Part shown: in pieces, positions 1 to 12,000 of the stretch
Layout of the letters: every line of letters begins with the position of its first letter
Position numbering within the stretch: position 1 is the stretch's first letter
Origin: Escherichia coli
GTDB taxonomy: Bacteria; Pseudomonadota; Gammaproteobacteria; Enterobacterales; Enterobacteriaceae
Length of the DNA: 64,000 nt
Direction: 5' to 3' (one strand)
NCBI RefSeq assembly: GCF_036507355.1
Contig: NZ_AP027877.1
Program-made: the position numbers

Positions 1-3000
1 GATCAACCGTGCGTCCTGCGCCAGTGCACGGCAAATAGCCACCAGCTGACAGCGGGCAATTGAAAGCTCAGAAACGAGTGTATCCAGTGGCAATGTGACG
101 TTAATACTGGTCATTGCCGCCTGCGCCACCTCACGCAGACGACGGCGGTTAACAAACAGACCGTGGTGATAGTGATTCACGGCGATATTCTCCCAGACAC
201 TCAGGTTAGGAAATAAAGAGAGGTCCTGATAAATCACCTGAATCCCCTGCGCCACCGAAGCGGCGGGTGTCAGCTTTGACCAGTTTTTCCCACCAAGCGT
301 AATTTCCGCTCCCTCATCCGGGCGATAAACACCGGACATAATTTTAATCAACGTCGATTTACCACAGCCGTTTTGCCCGGCAAGGCAGTGCACTTCACCC
401 GACATAAAGTCGAGAGAAACATCGCGCAGCGCTCGCGTGGCATGAAACGTTTTGTTGATATGACGAAGGGAAAGGAAGGTTTCCATAACATCCCCTGGCA
501 ATAAGAATCGGGGCTTTCGCCCCGAAGAAATGGATTAATAAAGTGAGTCGATATTGTCTTTGTTGACCAGTAATACCTTATGGAAACGGATAATTCGCTT
601 ATCCATATCTACGTCGGCCTTACCCAGATTCTGCATTTCTAATCCAGGTTTGATCTCTTCACCCTTCAGCAACGTACTGGCGACGGCTGCGAGTGCGTAA
701 CCTGCAGAGGCCGGATCGTAAGTAATCCCTTCGGTGATATCACCACTTTTAATCAGTGATGCCGCCTGTGAAGGGATCATCATGCCATAGACTGCGACTT
801 TATTTTTCGCCCGTTTCTCTTTCACCGCACGTCCCGCGCCAATCGGACCGTTTGAACCAAAGGAGACAACCGCTTTCAAGTCAGGATAGGTTTTCATCAG
901 GTCCAGTGTGGTACGACGTGAGTCATCCACACTCTCGGCAACCGGCATGCGGCGGGTAACTTCATGCATATCCGGGTAATGCTCTTTCTGGTATTTCACC
1001 AGCAAGTCAGCCCATAAGTTATGCTGCGGCACGGTCAAACTACCCACGTAAATCACATAGCCGCCCTTGCCCCCCATGCGTTTCGCCATATGCTCAACAT
1101 ATTCAGCGGCAAATTTTTCGTTATCAATGATTTCAATATCCCAGTTAGCACTTGGCTGACCGGGGGATTCGTTGGTCAGAACCACAATTCCGGCATCTCG
1201 CGCTTTTTTGAATACCGGTTCCAGCACGTTGGCATCGTTTGGCACGATAGTAATTGCATTAACCTTACGGGCGATTAAATCCTCAATAATTTTGACCTGT
1301 TGCGGAGCATCAGTACTTGAAGGCCCCACCTGTGAGGCATTAACACCAAAGGCTTTACCCGCCTCAACCACACCTTCGCCCATGCGATTAAACCACGGCA
1401 TACCATCGACTTTAGAAATATTCACCACGACTTTTTCCGCTGCCTGGAGCGGCGCAGAAATTAGCGCAGCGCCTAATAACAGCGAAGACACCATATTGAT
1501 AACAAAACGTTTATTCATCATTTCAGCCTCATTGCAGGGTAGTCAGGAAGTGTTCGCCCAAATTAGCGCGCTGGAGAGAATAAGAATTTTCGAATATTTT
1601 TATGCAGAATAAACAGCTCTATTTCAGGCAGCTATTAAAAATATGGTTATAAATATGGACAAAACGGGCAGCAATAATAAGTGTGACATTCATCACGTAA
1701 AAAACAGCAAAATAAACAAAATTAGCGATATTTTATGTTTGTGAGCTTATTTCGTGTAGATAAATAGTTATCTATACAACGTCAATAAGGGCATATTCTT
1801 CAAAGATAACGTCCATTTCTGGTGAATAGCTTCCTTCTGCCTGGAAAAAACGACGGTGTTCATTACGCCAATATTCAAGACTGAGGTCACCTTCACCTTC
1901 CTTACGGGCAAGCTCCGCGGTGACATCAGAAAAGCGCAGTAAATGCAGGCCAATCACTCTGATAACACATACAGGCTCACCACAGCTATTTTCTACAATC
2001 TTATACTCACCAATCATCGGAAATGCGTTGTCTTCAATACATCCCGCCAGCGAACCACAGGAAGCTGTTTTAACACCAGTCGCAATCAACGTTGCGAGGT
2101 GATCGGCCAACGCGGCTGAATCGCCAAAAGTACAAAAGGAAGCATGGGGATATTTTTGTGAGAATTTTTCTTTTATGGTCATGGCAATATTTTTGCGATT
2201 ACGGAAAAACAAATCACATCTTAATTACTGTTGGTAACCATCAGCAAGAGTATCATTGGTTTTTCGATACTGAATCTTTTTTATCCGAAGCAGGTCACAT
2301 TTATGGCCTGATAAATACCTTTGTTAAAACTCACTTTTGTGTATTTCTCTCAAATAATCCCCTGGAAATTATGCCGGGAGATTATAAAGTTCAGGATCAT
2401 TCATTAGCAAACCATTCCCCCCCACTCCCTGGGGCTTAAATCTCTTACTATTCACCGTTGCAGGCGTTTCAAATGCGCATCAACCTGCCACACTCCCCCA
2501 CACCAGTTGCCCTTTATGGAACGTTGCGGTTCTCGGCGAGATACGCGCCACCGCCTCGGCGGAACAGGAGGCGTCCACCAGCACAAAGGTGGCGTCATCT
2601 TGCGCTTTGGGCCAGACGCGCTCGCCTTTTTCGTTGAGCGGCAATACATCACCAGTGGCTAAAAACAGCGAGCGGGAGAGGTTCTGTTCGTTAGGACGAA
2701 TATAGAGCTGCGCGTACAGATTGGCTTTTTCCAGCATGTCGCCCAGGCCGTAGGGAGACCAGTGGTCGATAACGCTGTCGGTGCCGGTCATGACTTTTAC
2801 GCCTTTGTCGTGCAGCTGTTTGAGCGGCATATGCAGCGTGCCAATCGGCACCGTCGAGGCGATAGAAATTTGCTGCGCCGCCATCCGGTGCGCCAGTTCA
2901 TCTACCTGTTGTTCGTTGAGCGTAGCCAGCGCGAAGGCGTGACTGATGGTCAGCTTGCCCTTCAGTTGCGGCGTTTTCTCTACCGTTTCAACCATATAAT

Positions 3001-9000: not shown

Positions 9001-12000
9001 CTGTTCAACCTGTCCTTGCCCCCGCTGCGCCAGAAAATCCGCATCCGCAGTTAGCGCCCACACACACCGTTTTTCTGGTGTGTTGATAGCAAGCCTCCCG
9101 GTTTATGCACCTGCGGCAATCAGTAACTGCGCAATCTCTTCAAAGCCCCGTTCCCGCGCCAGTTCCAGTGGCGTTTTGCCATATTTATCGGTCAGATGCG
9201 GGCTGGCACCGTGTTCCAGCAATAACTGCACAATCGCCTGCTGTTTAATACCACCATCATTAAGCACAATCGCTTCCAGTAGCGGCGTCCAGCCTACATG
9301 GTTGGTCTGGTTAACGTTAATCTCCGTATGCGCCAAAAGCTCTTTTACAATACTTAAATGGCCTTTTTCACAGGCAGGCGTCAGGCCGACACCGCCAAAA
9401 CGGGTTACGCAATTAAGATCGGGTTTAGCCGGTAAAATAATTCGTAGTAGCGTTAAATCATCGTTCAGACAGCTAATTAAAAAAGGATTTAAACAGGTAT
9501 GATCTTGCTTATTAATATCCGCTCCGGCATCAATTAATGCCTGAACGCAAGCATATTGCTGATATAAACTTGCCAGCGTAATTGCCGTTTTCCCCTGACG
9601 ATCGCAGGTATTAATATCGACACCCAGCGCAAGGCAGGTTTTTACTTTATCGATATCACCCTGTTGTGCAGCCAATAAATAGTCGGCAGGTAGATTTTTT
9701 ATACTCATTCACATTCCCCTGGTTTTTGTGGCTGTTTTCGATGAATTGAGAATAGCAACGATAATCTGATAAAAGAACCCGCTTAAATTTAATTCGCCGT
9801 ATTTCGCCTTTTTGTTGAATGATGTTCAACAATCTTTTCGCAGTGTGCGGTAGTGCAATATTTGTTTCTTTGACCCGATACCCTTTCACTCAATCAGGTT
9901 TTATTTCTCTATAGTCTGCACATGTAAGAGTAGCTTTCGTCCATGTCTAACCAGAGGGGAACAAGATGAACGGACTCACGGCAACGGGTGTCACCGTCGG
10001 TATTTGTGCAGGGCTTTGGCAGTTAGTGTCTTCACATGTCGGGCTCTCTCAGGGATGGGAATTATTAGGAACCATTGGCTTCGTCGCCTTTTGCAGTTTT
10101 TATGCCGCAGGCGGCGGTAAATCGGGGTTTATCAGAAGTCTGGCGGTTAATTATTCCGGGATGGTGTGGGCGTTTTTCGCCGCGCTGGCTGCTGGTTGGC
10201 TGGCCTCTGTAAGTGGACTGTCCGCGTTCTGGGCGAGCGTAATTACTACCGTACCCTTCTCGGCGGTGGTGGTCTGGCAAGGGCGTTTCTGGTTACTGTC
10301 ATTTATTCCCGGTGGCTTTCTCGGCATGACGCTGTTTTTTGCCAGCGGGATGAACTGGACGGTGACATTACTGGGTTTTCTGGCGGGTAACTGCGTGGGG
10401 ATAATTTCAGAATATGGTGGACAAAAATTAAGCGAAGCGACGACTAAACGCGACGGGTATTAAAAGTTATTCAAAAATGATTATCTTTCTTTAACCGATA
10501 CCTCTACAGTCATAGCTGGAGAAATTCATATTAGATAATGGCGGGAATGGTTTAATGAACTCAATTTTTACCGAAGAGAATCTGTTGGCATTTACTACCG
10601 CTGCGCGTTTTGGCAGCTTCAGTAAAGCCGCAGAAGAGTTGGGTTTAACCACTTCCGCCATTAGCTACACCATTAAGCGTATGGAGACGGGGCTGGATGT
10701 GGTGCTGTTCACTCGCAGTACCCGCAGCATTGAGTTAACGGAGTCCGGGCGTTATTTTTTCCGCAAAGCTACCGACCTGCTGAATGATTTTCACGCCATC
10801 AAACGTAGCATTGATACTATTTCGCAGGGCATAGAAGCACGGGTTCGCATTTGTATTAATCAGCTGCTTTATACACCCAAACACACCGCGCGCTTATTAC
10901 AGGTGCTGAAAAAGCAGTTTCCTACCTGCCAGATTACCGTGACGACCGAAGTGTATAACGGCGTCTGGGATGCGATTATTAATAATCAGGCCAATATCGC
11001 CATCGGCGCACCCGATACACTACTGGACGGCGGCGGTATTGATTACACTGAAATTGGCGCGATTCGCTGGGCCTTTGCCATCGCCCCGGATCACCCGTTA
11101 GCCTTTGTGCCAGAGCCGATCGCCGAAAGTCAGCTGCGTCTCTACCCTAATATTATGGTGGAGGACACCGCACATACGATTAATAAAAAAGTGGGCTGGT
11201 TGCTGCATGGGCAGGAGTCGATTCTGGTGCCAGATTTCAACACCAAATGCCAGTGCCAGATTTTAGGTGAAGGGATTGGTTTTTTGCCGGATTACATGGT
11301 CCGTGAGGCGATGGCGCAATCCCTGCTGGTTACCCGACAAATCCATAACCCGCGCCAGGATTCACGCATGTTACTCGCAACCCAGCACTCTGCCACCGGT
11401 CAGGTGACGCAGTGGATTAAAAAGCAATTTGCGCCAAATGGCATATTAACGGGGATCTATCAGGATTTACTGCATCGGGAGAATTAATCGCTGCCAACCT
11501 CCCGATGCGCTGTGAATAGCGGTTTACATCAACCACCTGCTTTCATTACCCATTCAGAGATAAATTTATTACCCGGAACTGGCGGGGAGTACAAATAGCC
11601 CTGCAAAAAGTGAACGCCTTTACCGATCATTAAATCCGCCTGCTCCTGGGTCTCTACCCCTTCCGCTACGATACTCAGACCAGGCTTACGCGCCAGTTCG
11701 ACAATATTATCCACAATATGACCGGAGATTTCGTCGACACTCGCCATTTGCACAAATGACTTATCGATCTTAATAAAATCGACCGGAAACGCCTGCAAGT
11801 AACGATAGGTCGCATAACCCGTACCAAAGTCATCCAGCGCAAAGGTAATGTTGTGCTGATGAAGGCTGTCAAATATCGCTCTGGCTTCTGGCGTTACCGG
11901 AATAGGGTTACGTTCCGTTAGCTCGAGAACCAGTTTGATTTTATCGTTTCCTAATTTCTTAACCAGGTTCAGACACTCTTTTTCAAATCCCGCAGCCAAG

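What the first reader, a model, noticed from the sequence alone, without database searches (positions are those of the whole stretch)
2480..9708. yahD-yahJ: uncharacterised carbamate-kinase-linked cluster
Six co-directional, tightly packed genes: ankyrin protein, DUF2877, FdrA-like CoA-binding protein, DUF1116, carbamate kinase and a Tat-signal amidohydrolase. The DUF2877/FdrA/DUF1116/carbamate kinase quartet mirrors ylbF-fdrA-ylbE-arcC(ybcF) of the allantoin locus, where those proteins are candidates for the oxamate-carbamoyltransferase step. This paralogous set, with an exported deaminase, a membrane protein and a LysR regulator nearby, looks like a catabolic route for an unknown ureido/carbamoyl compound that yields ATP via carbamoyl phosphate.
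Basis: partly seen in the sequence, partly recalled or inferred. Interest (0 to 1): 0.62.

Follow-up and report, generated by a model that had tools for sequence, protein, structure and literature searches.

The report
Orphan carbamate-kinase catabolic operon yahDEFGIJ
This is the E. coli yahD-yahJ operon, a still-uncharacterised sister of the recently solved oxalurate-splitting enzyme plus carbamate kinase, and it probably turns an unknown nitrogen-rich compound into ammonia and ATP.

Summary
Six co-directional genes, yahD-E-F-G-I-J, lie on the minus strand at 2480-9708. They are tightly packed except for a 422-nt gap between yahG and yahI, which holds a REP/BIME array (the phantom gene 'yahH').

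YahF, YahG, YahE and YahI are clear paralogues of AllF, AllG, AllH and AllK.

The yah set is a separate lineage, not a recent copy:
- **Cross-phylum orthogroup:** the enzymes are 54-77% identical between Enterobacterales and Bacilli, but only 34-47% identical to the Allantoin-locus proteins.
- **Constant partners:** it travels with an ankyrin protein, a CodA/AtzC-type or CDA-fold deaminase and a nucleobase-type transporter.
- **Missing transporter:** in 29 of 34 complete clusters in other species a 515-aa UraA-fold transporter sits between yahG and yahI. In Escherichia that position holds the REP array, and yahC is present instead.

Most likely mechanism (inferred): periplasmic YahJ deaminates an N-acyl-amidine or N-acyl-guanidine compound to an N-acylurea. 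YahEFG, possibly with YahD, phosphorolyses it to carbamoyl phosphate. YahI then makes ATP. The substrate is unknown.

This is a new variant of a known kind, of moderate interest.

The parts
9103..9708 (-). yahD: 201-aa ankyrin-repeat protein with no signal peptide; first gene of the operon
   Evidence: ORF. Only ankyrin-repeat matches in NCBIfam. Orthologues sit next to YahJ in every full or minimal cluster. YahD-like ankyrin proteins also occur in the Bacilli clusters, at 30-37% identity.
8200..9063 (-). yahE: AllH-like (DUF2877) subunit; the fastest-evolving gene, and absent from some relatives
   Evidence: Pfam AllH PF11392, E 4e-28. 25% identity to AllH, E 7e-10. dN/dS 0.17-0.27. Missing in 6 of 34 complete clusters.
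6663..8210 (-). yahF: AllF/FdrA-like subunit (HMA_AllF_N + CoA_binding + Ligase_CoA); overlaps yahE by 11 nt
   Evidence: 39% identity to AllF, E 5e-102. NCBIfam FdrA subfamily 490 bits, above the cut-off of 433. 55-64% identity to Bacilli yah-type F.
5245..6663 (-). yahG: AllG-like (DUF1116) subunit with an N-terminal extension of about 50 aa that corresponds to the C-terminus of AllF; overlaps yahF by 1 nt
   Evidence: 45% identity to AllG. Residues 8-52 match FdrA model positions 509-553. 70% identity to PDB 3CLQ.
4823..5244 (.). BIME/REP array of about four tandem 93-nt units of paired inverted REPs (the former 'yahH'). It sits where relatives carry the transporter gene.
   Evidence: Sequence and repeats. 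Three Rfam naRNA4 matches on the + strand. Literature on REP23/yahH: PMC11551758 and PMC4765031. In other genera the yahG-yahI gap of 1.6-2.2 kb holds the transporter gene.
3872..4822 (-). yahI: carbamate kinase
   Evidence: NCBIfam PRK12352, 647 bits against a cut-off of 266. Colinear with solved carbamate kinases (1E19 E 3e-82, 1B7B E 3e-72). 38% identity to AllK and 54-58% to Bacilli yah-type kinases.
2480..3862 (-). yahJ: mononuclear-metal deaminase of the CodA/AtzC cluster of the amidohydrolase superfamily
   Evidence: Best solved relatives are 6NBO, AtzC and CodA. The CodA catalytic set is conserved: H121, H123, Q219, H275, E278, H308, D362, W368. K126 is AtzC-like and S363 is unique.
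3764..3862 (-). Twin-arginine (Tat) signal peptide of YahJ: MKENNSRREFLSQSGKMVTAAALFGTSVPLAHA
   Evidence: Sequence. R7, R8 and F10 are invariant in 14 orthologues, and the SRRxFL motif is kept in 58-65%-identical homologues. Listed as a predicted Tat substrate in PMC7549933. Bacilli homologues start at the catalytic domain without this peptide.
9812..9832 (.). Perfect palindrome TTGTTGAA-CATCA-TTCAACAA containing a LysR-type T-N11-A box, 120 nt upstream of yahD; candidate YahB operator
   Evidence: Sequence. A TGAA-N5-TTCA dyad lies 117-171 nt upstream of yahD in 11 of 24 upstream regions examined, from Escherichia, Aeromonas, Serratia, Buttiauxella, Atlantibacter, Providencia, Zophobihabitans and Pragia. 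Binding has not been tested.
9966..10463 (+). yahC: 165-aa DUF1097 membrane protein, divergent from yahD. It is present only in cluster types that lack the operon transporter.
   Evidence: Pfam DUF1097, E 1e-26. Mutually exclusive with the 515-aa transporter in 34 complete clusters.
10555..11487 (+). yahB: LysR-type regulator, closest to AllS and PunR
   Evidence: NCBIfam AllS model 268 bits (below the cut-off of 372) and PunR 239 bits. An orthologue is divergently adjacent to yahD in nearly all clusters, at 66-97% identity. AllS activates allFGHK (PMC12535856).

Best explanation
yahDEFGIJ, with yahB as regulator, is a catabolic operon with the same four-part logic as the arginine and agmatine deiminase pathways, built from different proteins.

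1. YahJ is exported by the Tat system and hydrolytically deaminates a compound carrying the O=C-N=C-NH2 motif, that is an N-acyl-amidine or N-acyl-guanidine such as an amino-oxo pyrimidine, triazine, imidazolone or an acyclic acylguanidine. This releases ammonia and leaves an N-acylurea.
2. The product is imported. In most relatives a 515-aa UraA-fold transporter encoded between yahG and yahI would do this. In Escherichia that gene is missing, so YahC or an unlinked carrier must do it.
3. YahE-YahF-YahG, an AllFGH-type carbamoyltransferase possibly organised by the ankyrin protein YahD, phosphorolyses the acylurea to an amide plus carbamoyl phosphate.
4. YahI converts carbamoyl phosphate and ADP to ATP, ammonia and CO2.

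Shown here: the gene anatomy, the homologies, the conserved catalytic residues and the conserved gene partnerships. Inferred: every reaction, the direction of flux, the substrate and the role of YahD.
For: - **Homology:** YahF, G, E and I are homologous to AllF, G, H and K. AllFGH is a purified, assayed oxalurate/oxamate carbamoyltransferase that works with the kinase AllK (PMC11326118).
- **YahI:** it is full-length colinear with solved carbamate kinases and exceeds the NCBIfam cut-off.
- **YahJ:** it keeps all CodA-type metal and catalytic residues. It falls in the CodA/AtzC/TrzC cluster, whose members attack cytosine-type amidines in pyrimidines and s-triazines.
- **Cross-phylum co-occurrence:** Trichococcus, Oceanobacillus, Peribacillus, Paenibacillus and Psychrobacillus carry yah-type H-F-G (plus kinase) next to an ankyrin protein. 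They also carry either YahJ-like amidohydrolases or a CDA-fold deaminase, and a nucleobase-type transporter (the same 515-aa family at 50% identity, NCS1 or NCS2), under a PucR regulator.
- **Orthogroup:** identity is 54-77% across phyla against 34-47% to the Allantoin-locus proteins.
- **Transporter fold:** AF2 pLDDT 91; all top Foldseek hits are UraA-fold carriers (UraA, UapA, SVCT1, AZG, SLC26).
- **Selection and retention:** dN/dS 0.01-0.27; 85% of E. coli genomes keep the region.
- **Regulator:** it is the closest paralogue of AllS, and AllS activates allFGHK. A conserved dyad lies upstream of yahD.
Against: - No activity of any Yah protein has been measured, and no paper found characterises them.
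- The cluster has no ring-opening hydrolase. A cyclic product such as uracil, cyanurate or N-methylhydantoin would not be a direct substrate, so the scheme works cleanly only for acyclic or self-opening products.
- YahJ also occurs without the transferase module, as yahB-yahD-yahJ or as LysR-YahJ alone. Its link to YahEFGI is therefore not obligatory.
- The Escherichia version lacks the operon transporter.
- YahE is absent from six related clusters.
- YahB ChIP-exo in glucose medium gave no site at yah.
- K-12 allF or allG deletion mutants make no oxamate although yah is intact. This fits a different substrate, but it fits silence equally well.
Confidence: 0.55

Rival explanations
1. YahEFG is a second oxamate carbamoyltransferase acting on oxalurate itself. 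The operon only supplies another entry route, for example external oxalurate or parabanate, or an imino analogue deaminated by YahJ.
For: Identity to AllF and AllG is 39-45% and the subunit set is the same. Yah-type clusters are the kind found in Enterococcus, a genus in which oxalurate fermentation was described classically (from memory, not checked here). Lys126 of YahJ matches AtzC Lys65, which contacts a malonate carboxylate in the crystal, so a dicarbonyl or carboxylate substrate is compatible.
Against: K-12 allF or allG deletion mutants produce zero oxamate from allantoin with yahEFG intact. The yah and all lineages have stayed distinct across phyla and coexist in one genome, which usually signals different specificity. 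Lack of expression could still explain the mutant result.
Confidence: 0.15
2. Two independent modules are merely co-located. YahB-YahD-YahJ would be a self-sufficient periplasmic deaminase for nitrogen scavenging or detoxifying a base analogue. YahEFGI would be a separate carbamoyl-phosphate module whose substrate is unrelated to the YahJ product.
For: Minimal yahB-yahD-yahJ loci occur in Cedecea, Erwinia persicina, Pragia and two Enterobacter-like strains. YahJ homologues at 57-65% identity are accompanied only by a LysR gene. E. coli plasmid and island copies keep the transferase, transporter and kinase but have lost yahJ to an IS element.
Against: A deaminase, an ankyrin protein and the transferase module co-occur in two phyla, with non-orthologous replacement of the deaminase type. 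In Enterobacterales the transferase genes sit between yahD and yahJ in one transcription direction with overlapping or short junctions.
Confidence: 0.15
3. The chromosomal E. coli operon is a cryptic remnant, disabled by loss of its transporter and split by a REP array.
For: The transporter is present in 29 of 34 complete clusters but absent here, with the REP array at its position. No phenotype is known and the genes are still listed in the y-ome. YahB showed no binding at yah under laboratory conditions.
Against: All ORFs are intact with dN/dS 0.01-0.27 against E. albertii, Kluyvera and Citrobacter. The region is retained in 4610 of 5426 genomes. The transporter-less, yahC-containing architecture is shared by Escherichia, Kluyvera, 'Pseudocitrobacter' and another Enterobacter-like strain, so it is old and maintained. 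The operon region (yahH/X002) shows ribosome footprints in EHEC. A yahJ deletion gave a competitive index of 0.70 (p = 0.02) in mice.
Confidence: 0.1
4. YahF is what its legacy name says, an acyl-CoA synthetase, and the operon runs CoA-dependent chemistry rather than carbamoyl transfer.
For: It carries the CoA_binding and Ligase_CoA Pfam domains and has weak matches to succinyl-CoA synthetase alpha. RefSeq names it 'acyl-CoA synthetase FdrA'.
Against: The orthologous-type protein AllF is a subunit of a purified carbamoyltransferase. YahF always co-occurs with G, H and a carbamate kinase. The SucD match stops before the region that carries the phosphohistidine loop (the position of that loop is from memory).
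Confidence: 0.03

Closest known systems
AllF-AllG-AllH oxamic transcarbamylase with AllK carbamate kinase (E. coli anaerobic allantoin pathway; Kim & Kim 2022, 2024)
   Same: It has the same three non-canonical transferase subunits plus an adjacent carbamate kinase. A LysR regulator of the same clade is involved, AllS versus YahB. The expected chemistry is phosphorolysis of an N-acylurea to carbamoyl phosphate.
   Different: - **Orthogroup:** identity is 34-47%, against 54-77% within the yah type.
- **Gene order:** H-F-G...K instead of F-G-H-K.
- **Domain boundary:** a segment of about 50 aa sits on the G protein instead of the F protein.
- **Partners:** ankyrin protein, CodA/AtzC-type deaminase and dedicated transporter, instead of allD, allC and allE.
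- **Function in vivo:** it does not replace allFG in K-12.
- **Substrate:** unknown.
Arginine deiminase (ArcABCD) and agmatine deiminase pathways
   Same: The logic is the same: hydrolytic deimination of a guanidino or amidino group to a ureido group, phosphorolysis to carbamoyl phosphate, ATP formation by carbamate kinase, and a dedicated transporter. This is established textbook knowledge.
   Different: The deiminase and the transferase belong to unrelated protein families. The first step is periplasmic here. The expected intermediate is an N-acylurea rather than an N-alkylurea. This is an analogy only and was not tested.
CodA cytosine deaminase, AtzC N-isopropylammelide isopropylaminohydrolase and TrzC (CodA cluster of amidohydrolase subtype III)
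   Same: The fold, the metal ligands, the Glu/His/Asp catalytic set and the intermediate-stabilising Gln are all conserved in YahJ.
   Different: YahJ carries a Tat signal. Its specificity positions are a hybrid: Lys126 as in AtzC, Glu278 as in CodA, and Ser363 where CodA has Asp314 and AtzC has Asn304. Identity to CodA is only 25%.
YgeW-YqeA (the carbamoyltransferase plus carbamate kinase of the E. coli ygeW-ygfK purine-related cluster)
   Same: It is another E. coli locus that couples a carbamoyl donor to a paralogous carbamate kinase. YgeW is named; the rest is from memory.
   Different: YgeW is a canonical ATCase/OTCase-fold trimer, not an AllFGH-type enzyme. This locus was not examined here.

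Membership tests
AllFGH-type carbamoyltransferase (oxamic transcarbamylase kind) | Three subunits homologous to AllF (FdrA), AllG (DUF1116) and AllH (DUF2877), encoded together | tested here: met
   BLASTP E-values of 5e-102, 8e-120 and 7e-10. The FdrA NCBIfam model scores above its cut-off. Pfam AllH, E 4e-28.
AllFGH-type carbamoyltransferase (oxamic transcarbamylase kind) | A carbamate kinase gene in the same operon | tested here: met
   yahI lies downstream in the same orientation. 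It is 38% identical to AllK and colinear with solved carbamate kinases.
AllFGH-type carbamoyltransferase (oxamic transcarbamylase kind) | Catalyses oxalurate + Pi <-> oxamate + carbamoyl phosphate | not testable with these tools
   This needs an enzyme assay. The only indirect datum is that K-12 allF or allG deletion mutants make no oxamate with yah intact (PMC11326118 Table 1).
AllFGH orthogroup proper (allantoin regulon) | Orthology to AllF, G, H and K, and location beside allDCE in the allantoin regulon | tested here: not met
   Yah proteins are closer to Bacilli yah-type proteins (54-77%) than to All proteins (34-47%). The F/G boundary differs. The locus lies between yahB/yahC and an ASCH gene, not near the all genes.
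Carbamate kinase (EC 2.7.2.2) | Full-length AA_kinase fold matching characterised carbamate kinases, and curated family thresholds | tested here: met
   PRK12352 scores 647 bits against a cut-off of 266. 1E19, 1B7B and 3KZF align end to end, with E 3e-82 to 1e-67. The arcC equivalog TIGR00746 is narrowly missed (347.2 against 358.25), which is consistent with a distinct subfamily.
Amidohydrolase superfamily subtype III, CodA cluster | HxH + His + Asp metal ligands, catalytic Glu and His, and an intermediate-stabilising Gln at the CodA positions | tested here: met
   H121, H123, H275, D362, E278, H308 and Q219 align with CodA H61, H63, H214, D313, E217, H246 and Q156. The residue mapping comes from PMC4577212.
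Cytosine deaminase or AtzC as specific enzymes | Specificity residues of CodA (Thr66, Asp314) or of AtzC (Lys65, His219, Asn304) | tested here: not met
   YahJ has Lys126, Glu278 and Ser363, which is neither pattern. NCBIfam cytosine deaminase models score far below their cut-offs.
Tat-exported proteins | N-terminal S/T-R-R-x-F-L motif, a hydrophobic stretch and an AxA cleavage site; export of the folded protein | tested here: inconclusive
   The motif SRREFL plus AHA is present and conserved. Export itself was not testable here. YahJ is listed as a predicted Tat substrate in PMC7549933.
AllS (LysR activator of the allantoin genes) | Score above the curated AllS equivalog threshold | tested here: not met
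   The score is 268 bits against a cut-off of 372. AllS is the best hit and PunR the second. YahB is therefore a LysR paralogue of the AllS/PunR clade, not AllS.
BIME/REP array | Tandem units of paired, inverted REP palindromes in an intergenic region | tested here: met
   93-nt period, 96-100% identical copies and inverted arms. Three Rfam naRNA4 (REP-derived) matches.
UraA-fold (7+7 inverted repeat) secondary transporters; applies to the operon transporter of relatives, which is not in the window | The fold, including short beta-strands in TM3 and TM10, and sequence membership in NCS2, AzgA or SulP | tested here: inconclusive
   The fold criterion is met: pLDDT 91, strands at 85-87 and 303-305, and Foldseek probability 1.0 to SVCT1, UraA, AZG2, UapA and SLC26. 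Sequence membership is not met: no Pfam, NCBIfam or PDB hit for the query. Only a few distant members touch Xan_ur_permease or MFS_MOT1.

The most novel reading that the evidence does not exclude
The yah-type set (deaminase, ankyrin protein, AllFGH-like transferase, carbamate kinase and a Pfam-less UraA-fold transporter) is an unrecognised ATP-yielding pathway shared by Enterobacterales and Bacilli. It would act on an N-acyl-guanidine or amino-oxo-azine compound, such as a creatinine-, ammelide-, 5-azacytosine- or guanylurea-like molecule, or an oxidised-guanine product. An ankyrin-repeat protein would be an obligatory enzyme partner. In Gram-negatives the first step would have been moved to the periplasm, and Escherichia would have swapped the transporter for YahC.
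Probability: 0.3. Interest if true: 0.7.

Novelty: new variant of a known kind. Interest (0 to 1): 0.5.

Why it matters
E. coli has three carbamate kinase paralogues. AllK is assigned to allantoin and oxalurate. YqeA lies in the ygeW purine-related cluster (from memory). YahI is the one left without a pathway. Its operon is present in about 85% of E. coli genomes, is conserved under purifying selection, and has close counterparts in many Enterobacterales and soil and gut Bacilli.

Since AllFGH was identified in 2024, the yah enzymes can be tested directly as a second member of this unusual three-subunit carbamoyltransferase class. That would show how the class chooses substrates, and would add an ATP- and nitrogen-yielding route to gut anaerobe metabolism.

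The comparative result gives a concrete reason why laboratory E. coli may show no phenotype: most relatives carry an in-operon transporter that Escherichia lacks. It also points to better experimental hosts, such as Citrobacter, Providencia or E. coli strains carrying the plasmid copy.

Tried and rejected
- **Identifying the transporter by sequence.** Pfam, NCBIfam, a PDB profile search and hhalign against the NCS2 protein YbbY found nothing for the query protein itself; in the Pfam scan of the alignment only a few distant family members gave weak Xan_ur_permease or MFS_MOT1 matches. Only structure prediction and Foldseek placed it.
- **Substrate clues from stand-alone YahJ homologues.** Across 40 loci the only recurrent neighbour is a LysR regulator, so no pathway hint came out.
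- **YahC against the membrane protein of about 390 aa in Bacilli clusters.** No similarity.
- **Promoter and terminator scans of the operon.** Counts are no higher than in shuffled sequence, and no internal minus-strand signal stands out.
- **YahB regulon from published ChIP-exo.** Three weak sites, none at yah.
- **AllS operator against the yahD dyad.** No resemblance between the allF -203/-144 region and the yahD palindrome.
- **Metal-dependent bile salt hydrolases that cite AtzC.** These are binuclear YtcJ-like enzymes and are unrelated to YahJ.
- **Literature.** No paper characterises any yah gene.
- **AF2 model of a YahD-YahJ complex.** Considered and dropped, because the tool returns no interface metrics.

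Full report
**1. What is in the sequence**

The window matches E. coli chromosomes at about 98% identity. 4610 of 5426 complete genomes hold at least 80% of the 8.5-kb query, and RefSeq annotates the stretch as yahJ, yahI, yahH, yahG, fdrA (= yahF), yahE, yahD, yahC and yahB.

All six genes of the finding are on the minus strand:

| Gene | Coordinates |
|---|---|
| yahD | 9103-9708 |
| yahE | 8200-9063 |
| yahF | 6663-8210 |
| yahG | 5245-6663 |
| yahI | 3872-4822 |
| yahJ | 2480-3862 |

Four junctions are tight: a 39-nt gap, an 11-nt overlap, a 1-nt overlap and a 9-nt gap. The yahG-yahI junction is 422 nt. It consists of about four tandem 93-nt units, each a pair of inverted REP palindromes, and these also score as the REP-derived Rfam family naRNA4 on the opposite strand. 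This is the former 'yahH', described in the literature as REP23.

**2.

I fetched the K-12 allantoin locus and compared the proteins:

| Pair | Identity | E-value |
|---|---|---|
| YahF / AllF | 39% | 5e-102 |
| YahG / AllG | 45% | 8e-120 |
| YahE / AllH | 25% | 7e-10 |
| YahI / AllK | 38% | 2e-56 |

- YahE carries the Pfam AllH domain.
- YahF exceeds the NCBIfam FdrA threshold.
- YahI exceeds a carbamate kinase threshold and aligns end to end with solved carbamate kinases.
- Kim & Kim (2024) purified AllF-AllG-AllH and measured oxamic transcarbamylase activity. Deleting any one of the three genes blocks or nearly blocks oxamate formation.
- That paper does not mention the yah genes. A 2024 survey still lists yahC, E, G, H, I and J as uncharacterised.
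- No paper I could search characterises them.

**3. The yah set is an old, separate lineage**

- YahG is 70% identical to PDB 3CLQ, an 'uncharacterized protein' of Enterococcus type.
- Homologues of the same length (about 475 aa) fill the Bacilli.
- Pairwise identities split cleanly:

| Subunit | Within yah type (gamma-proteobacteria vs Bacilli) | Against the All protein |
|---|---|---|
| G | 65-77% | 45-47% (AllG) |
| F | 55-64% | 36-39% (AllF) |
| Kinase | 54-58% | 34-38% (AllK) |

- The H-like subunit is weakly conserved everywhere.
- There is an architectural marker. YahF is 40 aa shorter than AllF and YahG is 53 aa longer than AllG. YahG residues 8-52 match the last 45 positions of the FdrA model. 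The same segment therefore sits on F in the all type and on G in the yah type, which also argues that F and G act as one complex.
- Gene order differs as well: H-F-G...K against F-G-H-K.
- K-12 mutants lacking allF or allG make no oxamate although yahEFG is intact. The paralogues are not redundant under those conditions.

**4. What travels with the yah enzymes**

A scan of one genome per species with a YahJ alignment returned 80 loci. I scored these by tblastn for each Yah protein. The 34 complete clusters fall into three types:

| Type | Count | Content |
|---|---|---|
| 1 | 23 | yahB, yahD, E, F, G, a gene for a 515-aa membrane protein, yahI, yahJ (one locus is cut before yahB) |
| 2 | 6 | As type 1 but without yahE (Enterobacter, Lelliottia, Silvania, Aeromonas) |
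| 3 | 5, plus the window | No 515-aa gene; yahC lies between yahB and yahD (Escherichia, 'Pseudocitrobacter', Kluyvera, one Enterobacter-like strain) |

- No complete cluster has both the 515-aa gene and yahC, and none lacks both.
- The 515-aa protein has no Pfam, NCBIfam or PDB sequence match. It belongs to a large family: 2330 cluster representatives at E <= 0.001.
- Its AF2 model is confident (pLDDT 91). All top Foldseek hits are 7+7 inverted-repeat carriers: SVCT1, UraA, UapA, AZG1/2, SLC26/prestin, BicA and Bor1.
- It is not encoded anywhere in the window.
- 142 E. coli genomes carry a second, IS-flanked copy of the transporter-type cluster, mostly on IncF plasmids. In those copies yahJ has been lost.
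- Minimal loci with only yahB-yahD-yahJ exist in Cedecea, Erwinia persicina, Pragia and two Enterobacter-like strains.
- More distant YahJ homologues (57-65% identity) stand alone with a different LysR gene.

**5. The same partnership in Bacilli**

| Organism | Cluster content |
|---|---|
| Trichococcus | PucR; two YahJ-like amidohydrolases (36%, no signal peptide); YahD-like ankyrin protein; H-F-G; membrane protein |
| Peribacillus | PucR; H-F-G; ankyrin; kinase; then an allantoate-amidohydrolase-like M20 enzyme, two YahJ-like proteins (41-44%) and a TRZ/ATZ-type deaminase; an NCS2 permease upstream |
| Paenibacillus | H-F-G-ankyrin-kinase followed by an allantoin-permease-like NCS1 carrier and a 150-aa CDA-fold deaminase |
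| Psychrobacillus | H-F-G-ankyrin-kinase followed by a homologue of the 515-aa transporter (50% identity) and a CDA-fold deaminase |
| Oceanobacillus | Three amidohydrolases (two of them compared: 36-37% identical to YahJ) and an MFS carrier upstream |

A deaminase of one fold or another, an ankyrin protein, a nucleobase-type carrier and the H-F-G-kinase set form a conserved functional neighbourhood. The replacement of the deaminase by an unrelated fold is the strongest sign that deamination of a heteroaromatic or amidine-type amine belongs to the pathway.

**6. YahJ**

- Its closest solved relatives are 6NBO, AtzC and CodA.
- Aligned with CodA, it keeps the metal ligands (H121, H123, H275, D362), the proton-shuttle Glu278, His308, the intermediate-stabilising Gln219 and Trp368.
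- The residue map published for AtzC and CodA places YahJ Lys126 at the AtzC Lys65 position, where CodA has Thr66. Glu278 is as in CodA, where AtzC has His219. Ser363 sits where CodA has Asp314 and AtzC has Asn304.
- These residues are invariant among 14 orthologues.
- YahJ is therefore a CodA-cluster deaminase with its own specificity.
- The N-terminus MKENNSRREFLSQSGKMVTAAALFGTSVPLAHA is a canonical twin-arginine signal. R7, R8 and F10 are invariant and the motif is retained in distant homologues.
- Bacilli homologues start at the catalytic domain.
- A yahJ deletion in an ExPEC strain was mildly out-competed in mice: competitive index 0.70, p = 0.02.

**7. Regulation**

- YahB scores best against the AllS model and next against PunR, below both thresholds.
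- AllS binds upstream of allF and activates allFGHK together with ArcA. The paralogy therefore extends to the regulator.
- A yahB orthologue is divergently adjacent in nearly every cluster.
- A perfect palindrome, TTGTTGAA-CATCA-TTCAACAA at 9812-9832, lies 120 nt upstream of yahD.
- A TGAA-N5-TTCA dyad lies 117-171 nt upstream of yahD in 11 of 24 upstream regions examined, drawn from eight genera. By my estimate such a 13-mer is expected about 0.03 times per 420 nt.
- ChIP-exo of YahB in glucose medium found nothing at yah, which is uninformative without the inducer.
- Simple promoter and terminator scans were not informative.

**8. Mechanism**

CodA-cluster substrates share the motif O=C-N=C-NH2, an N-acyl amidine or guanidine. 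Cytosine, ammelide and creatinine all contain it; this rests on established chemistry together. Hydrolytic deamination of an N-acylguanidine gives an N-acylurea, and that is the substrate class of the only characterised AllFGH-type enzyme, since oxalurate is N-carbamoyl-oxamate.

The operon then reads like an arginine or agmatine deiminase pathway made of other parts:
- YahJ is the deiminase.
- YahEFG is the transcarbamylase.
- YahI is the kinase.
- The carrier is the 515-aa transporter in most relatives, and perhaps YahC in Escherichia.

This reading explains why no ring-opening hydrolase is conserved, provided the substrate is acyclic or its product opens spontaneously. It does not identify the compound. 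The role of YahD is open. It is bound to YahJ in the minimal loci and sits next to the kinase in Bacilli. It could be a scaffold or assembly factor. A bacterial precedent, recalled from memory and not checked, is AnkB, which is needed for KatB catalase in Pseudomonas.

The absence of yahE from six clusters fits the published finding that allFG without allH retains about 7% function.

**9. Is the E. coli copy alive?**

- All ORFs are intact. dN/dS against E. albertii, Kluyvera and Citrobacter is 0.007-0.27, highest for yahE.
- The yahC-type architecture is shared by several genera.
- The region is kept by most E. coli.
- The operon region (the yahH/X002 ORF) was covered by ribosome footprints in EHEC.

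A cryptic remnant is therefore unlikely, although loss of the transporter may explain why no laboratory phenotype is known.

**10. Verdict**

The operon is not novel as a set of genes, and its similarity to the allantoin-locus genes is already reflected in current RefSeq product names. What remains open is a conserved, cross-phylum variant of the AllFGH-plus-carbamate-kinase system with its own deaminase, ankyrin partner and transporter, and an unknown substrate. Interest is moderate: nothing here overturns expectations, but the last unassigned carbamate kinase pathway of E. coli is now directly testable.

Noticed in passing
window 4922-4991, 5015-5084, 5108-5177 (+): Three units of the yahG-yahI REP array score 78 bits (gathering score 59.5) against Rfam naRNA4 (nucleoid-associated ncRNA 4, REP325-derived), on the strand antisense to the operon. 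Whether this array makes such an RNA is unknown.
   Followed up: partly
L086:3168-11601 and L087:3168-11601 (E. coli chromosomal island and IncF plasmid): 142 of 5426 E. coli genomes carry a second, IS-flanked yah-like cluster: LysR, ankyrin, AllH-like, FdrA, YlbE, 516-aa transporter and carbamate kinase. It is about 89% identical to the Citrobacter cluster over the transporter gene that was used as the query and lies mostly on plasmids (107 places). yahJ has been replaced by an ISL3 element. PGAP names the transporter 'xanthine permease' in one record and 'hypothetical protein' in the others listed.
   Followed up: partly
L003:7300-8847; L009:7461-8984; L094:13964-15505: The 515-aa operon transporter defines a large family (2330 cluster representatives at E <= 0.001) with a confident UraA-type fold. 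The query has no Pfam, NCBIfam or PDB sequence match. The family seems undescribed.
   Followed up: yes
L090:11485-12669; L089:11198-12379; L093:11489-12658: A second Pfam-less multi-TM protein of about 390 aa, 68-74% identical between genera, follows the AllG-like gene in Trichococcus, Enterococcus and Oceanobacillus. It is unrelated to YahC and, by BLASTP, to the 515-aa transporter.
   Followed up: partly
window 2480-11487 compared with L008 (E. albertii) and L006/L007 ('Pseudocitrobacter'): Synonymous divergence from E. albertii is 0.73-0.85 for yahB and yahC but only 0.17-0.36 for yahD to yahJ. In the 'Pseudocitrobacter faecalis' records yahF to yahJ are 96-99% identical in protein to the window, while yahD, yahE and yahC are only 55-74%. 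Both point to recombination breakpoints inside the cluster.
   Followed up: no
L019, L021, L022, L023, L038, L003: Enterobacter, Lelliottia, Silvania and Aeromonas clusters lack any yahE/AllH-like gene. The yahD-yahF gap is 113-286 nt, and tblastn finds nothing convincing at E <= 1. Yet yahF and yahG are 80-90% identical to the window. The H subunit seems dispensable or supplied from elsewhere.
   Followed up: partly
window 535-2212 (-): Downstream of yahJ this strain has an ASCH-domain gene (1772-2212) with its own promoter-like site (2381-2410). Next to it, the 98%-identical reference record used for annotation has an autoinducer-2-type ABC transporter operon, whose binding-protein gene corresponds to the window ORF at 535-1521. 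K-12 has yahK, yahL and yahM at this position.
   Followed up: no
L089:9751-11155: In the Enterococcus contig the AllG-like gene is called as a 77-aa ORF plus a 384-aa ORF. The 77-aa piece matches the YahG N-terminal segment and the AllF C-terminus. The same mobile segment of about 50 aa therefore occurs fused to F, fused to G, or apparently free.
   Followed up: partly
window 11529-64000: By synteny with a 98%-identical annotated genome, the rest of the window is ordinary E. coli backbone: pdeL, ehaA, betTIBA, ipbA-hyxR-hyxA, ykgEFG, rclRABC, fdeC, ykgMO and ecpRABCDE. Nothing there is linked to the yah operon.
   Followed up: no
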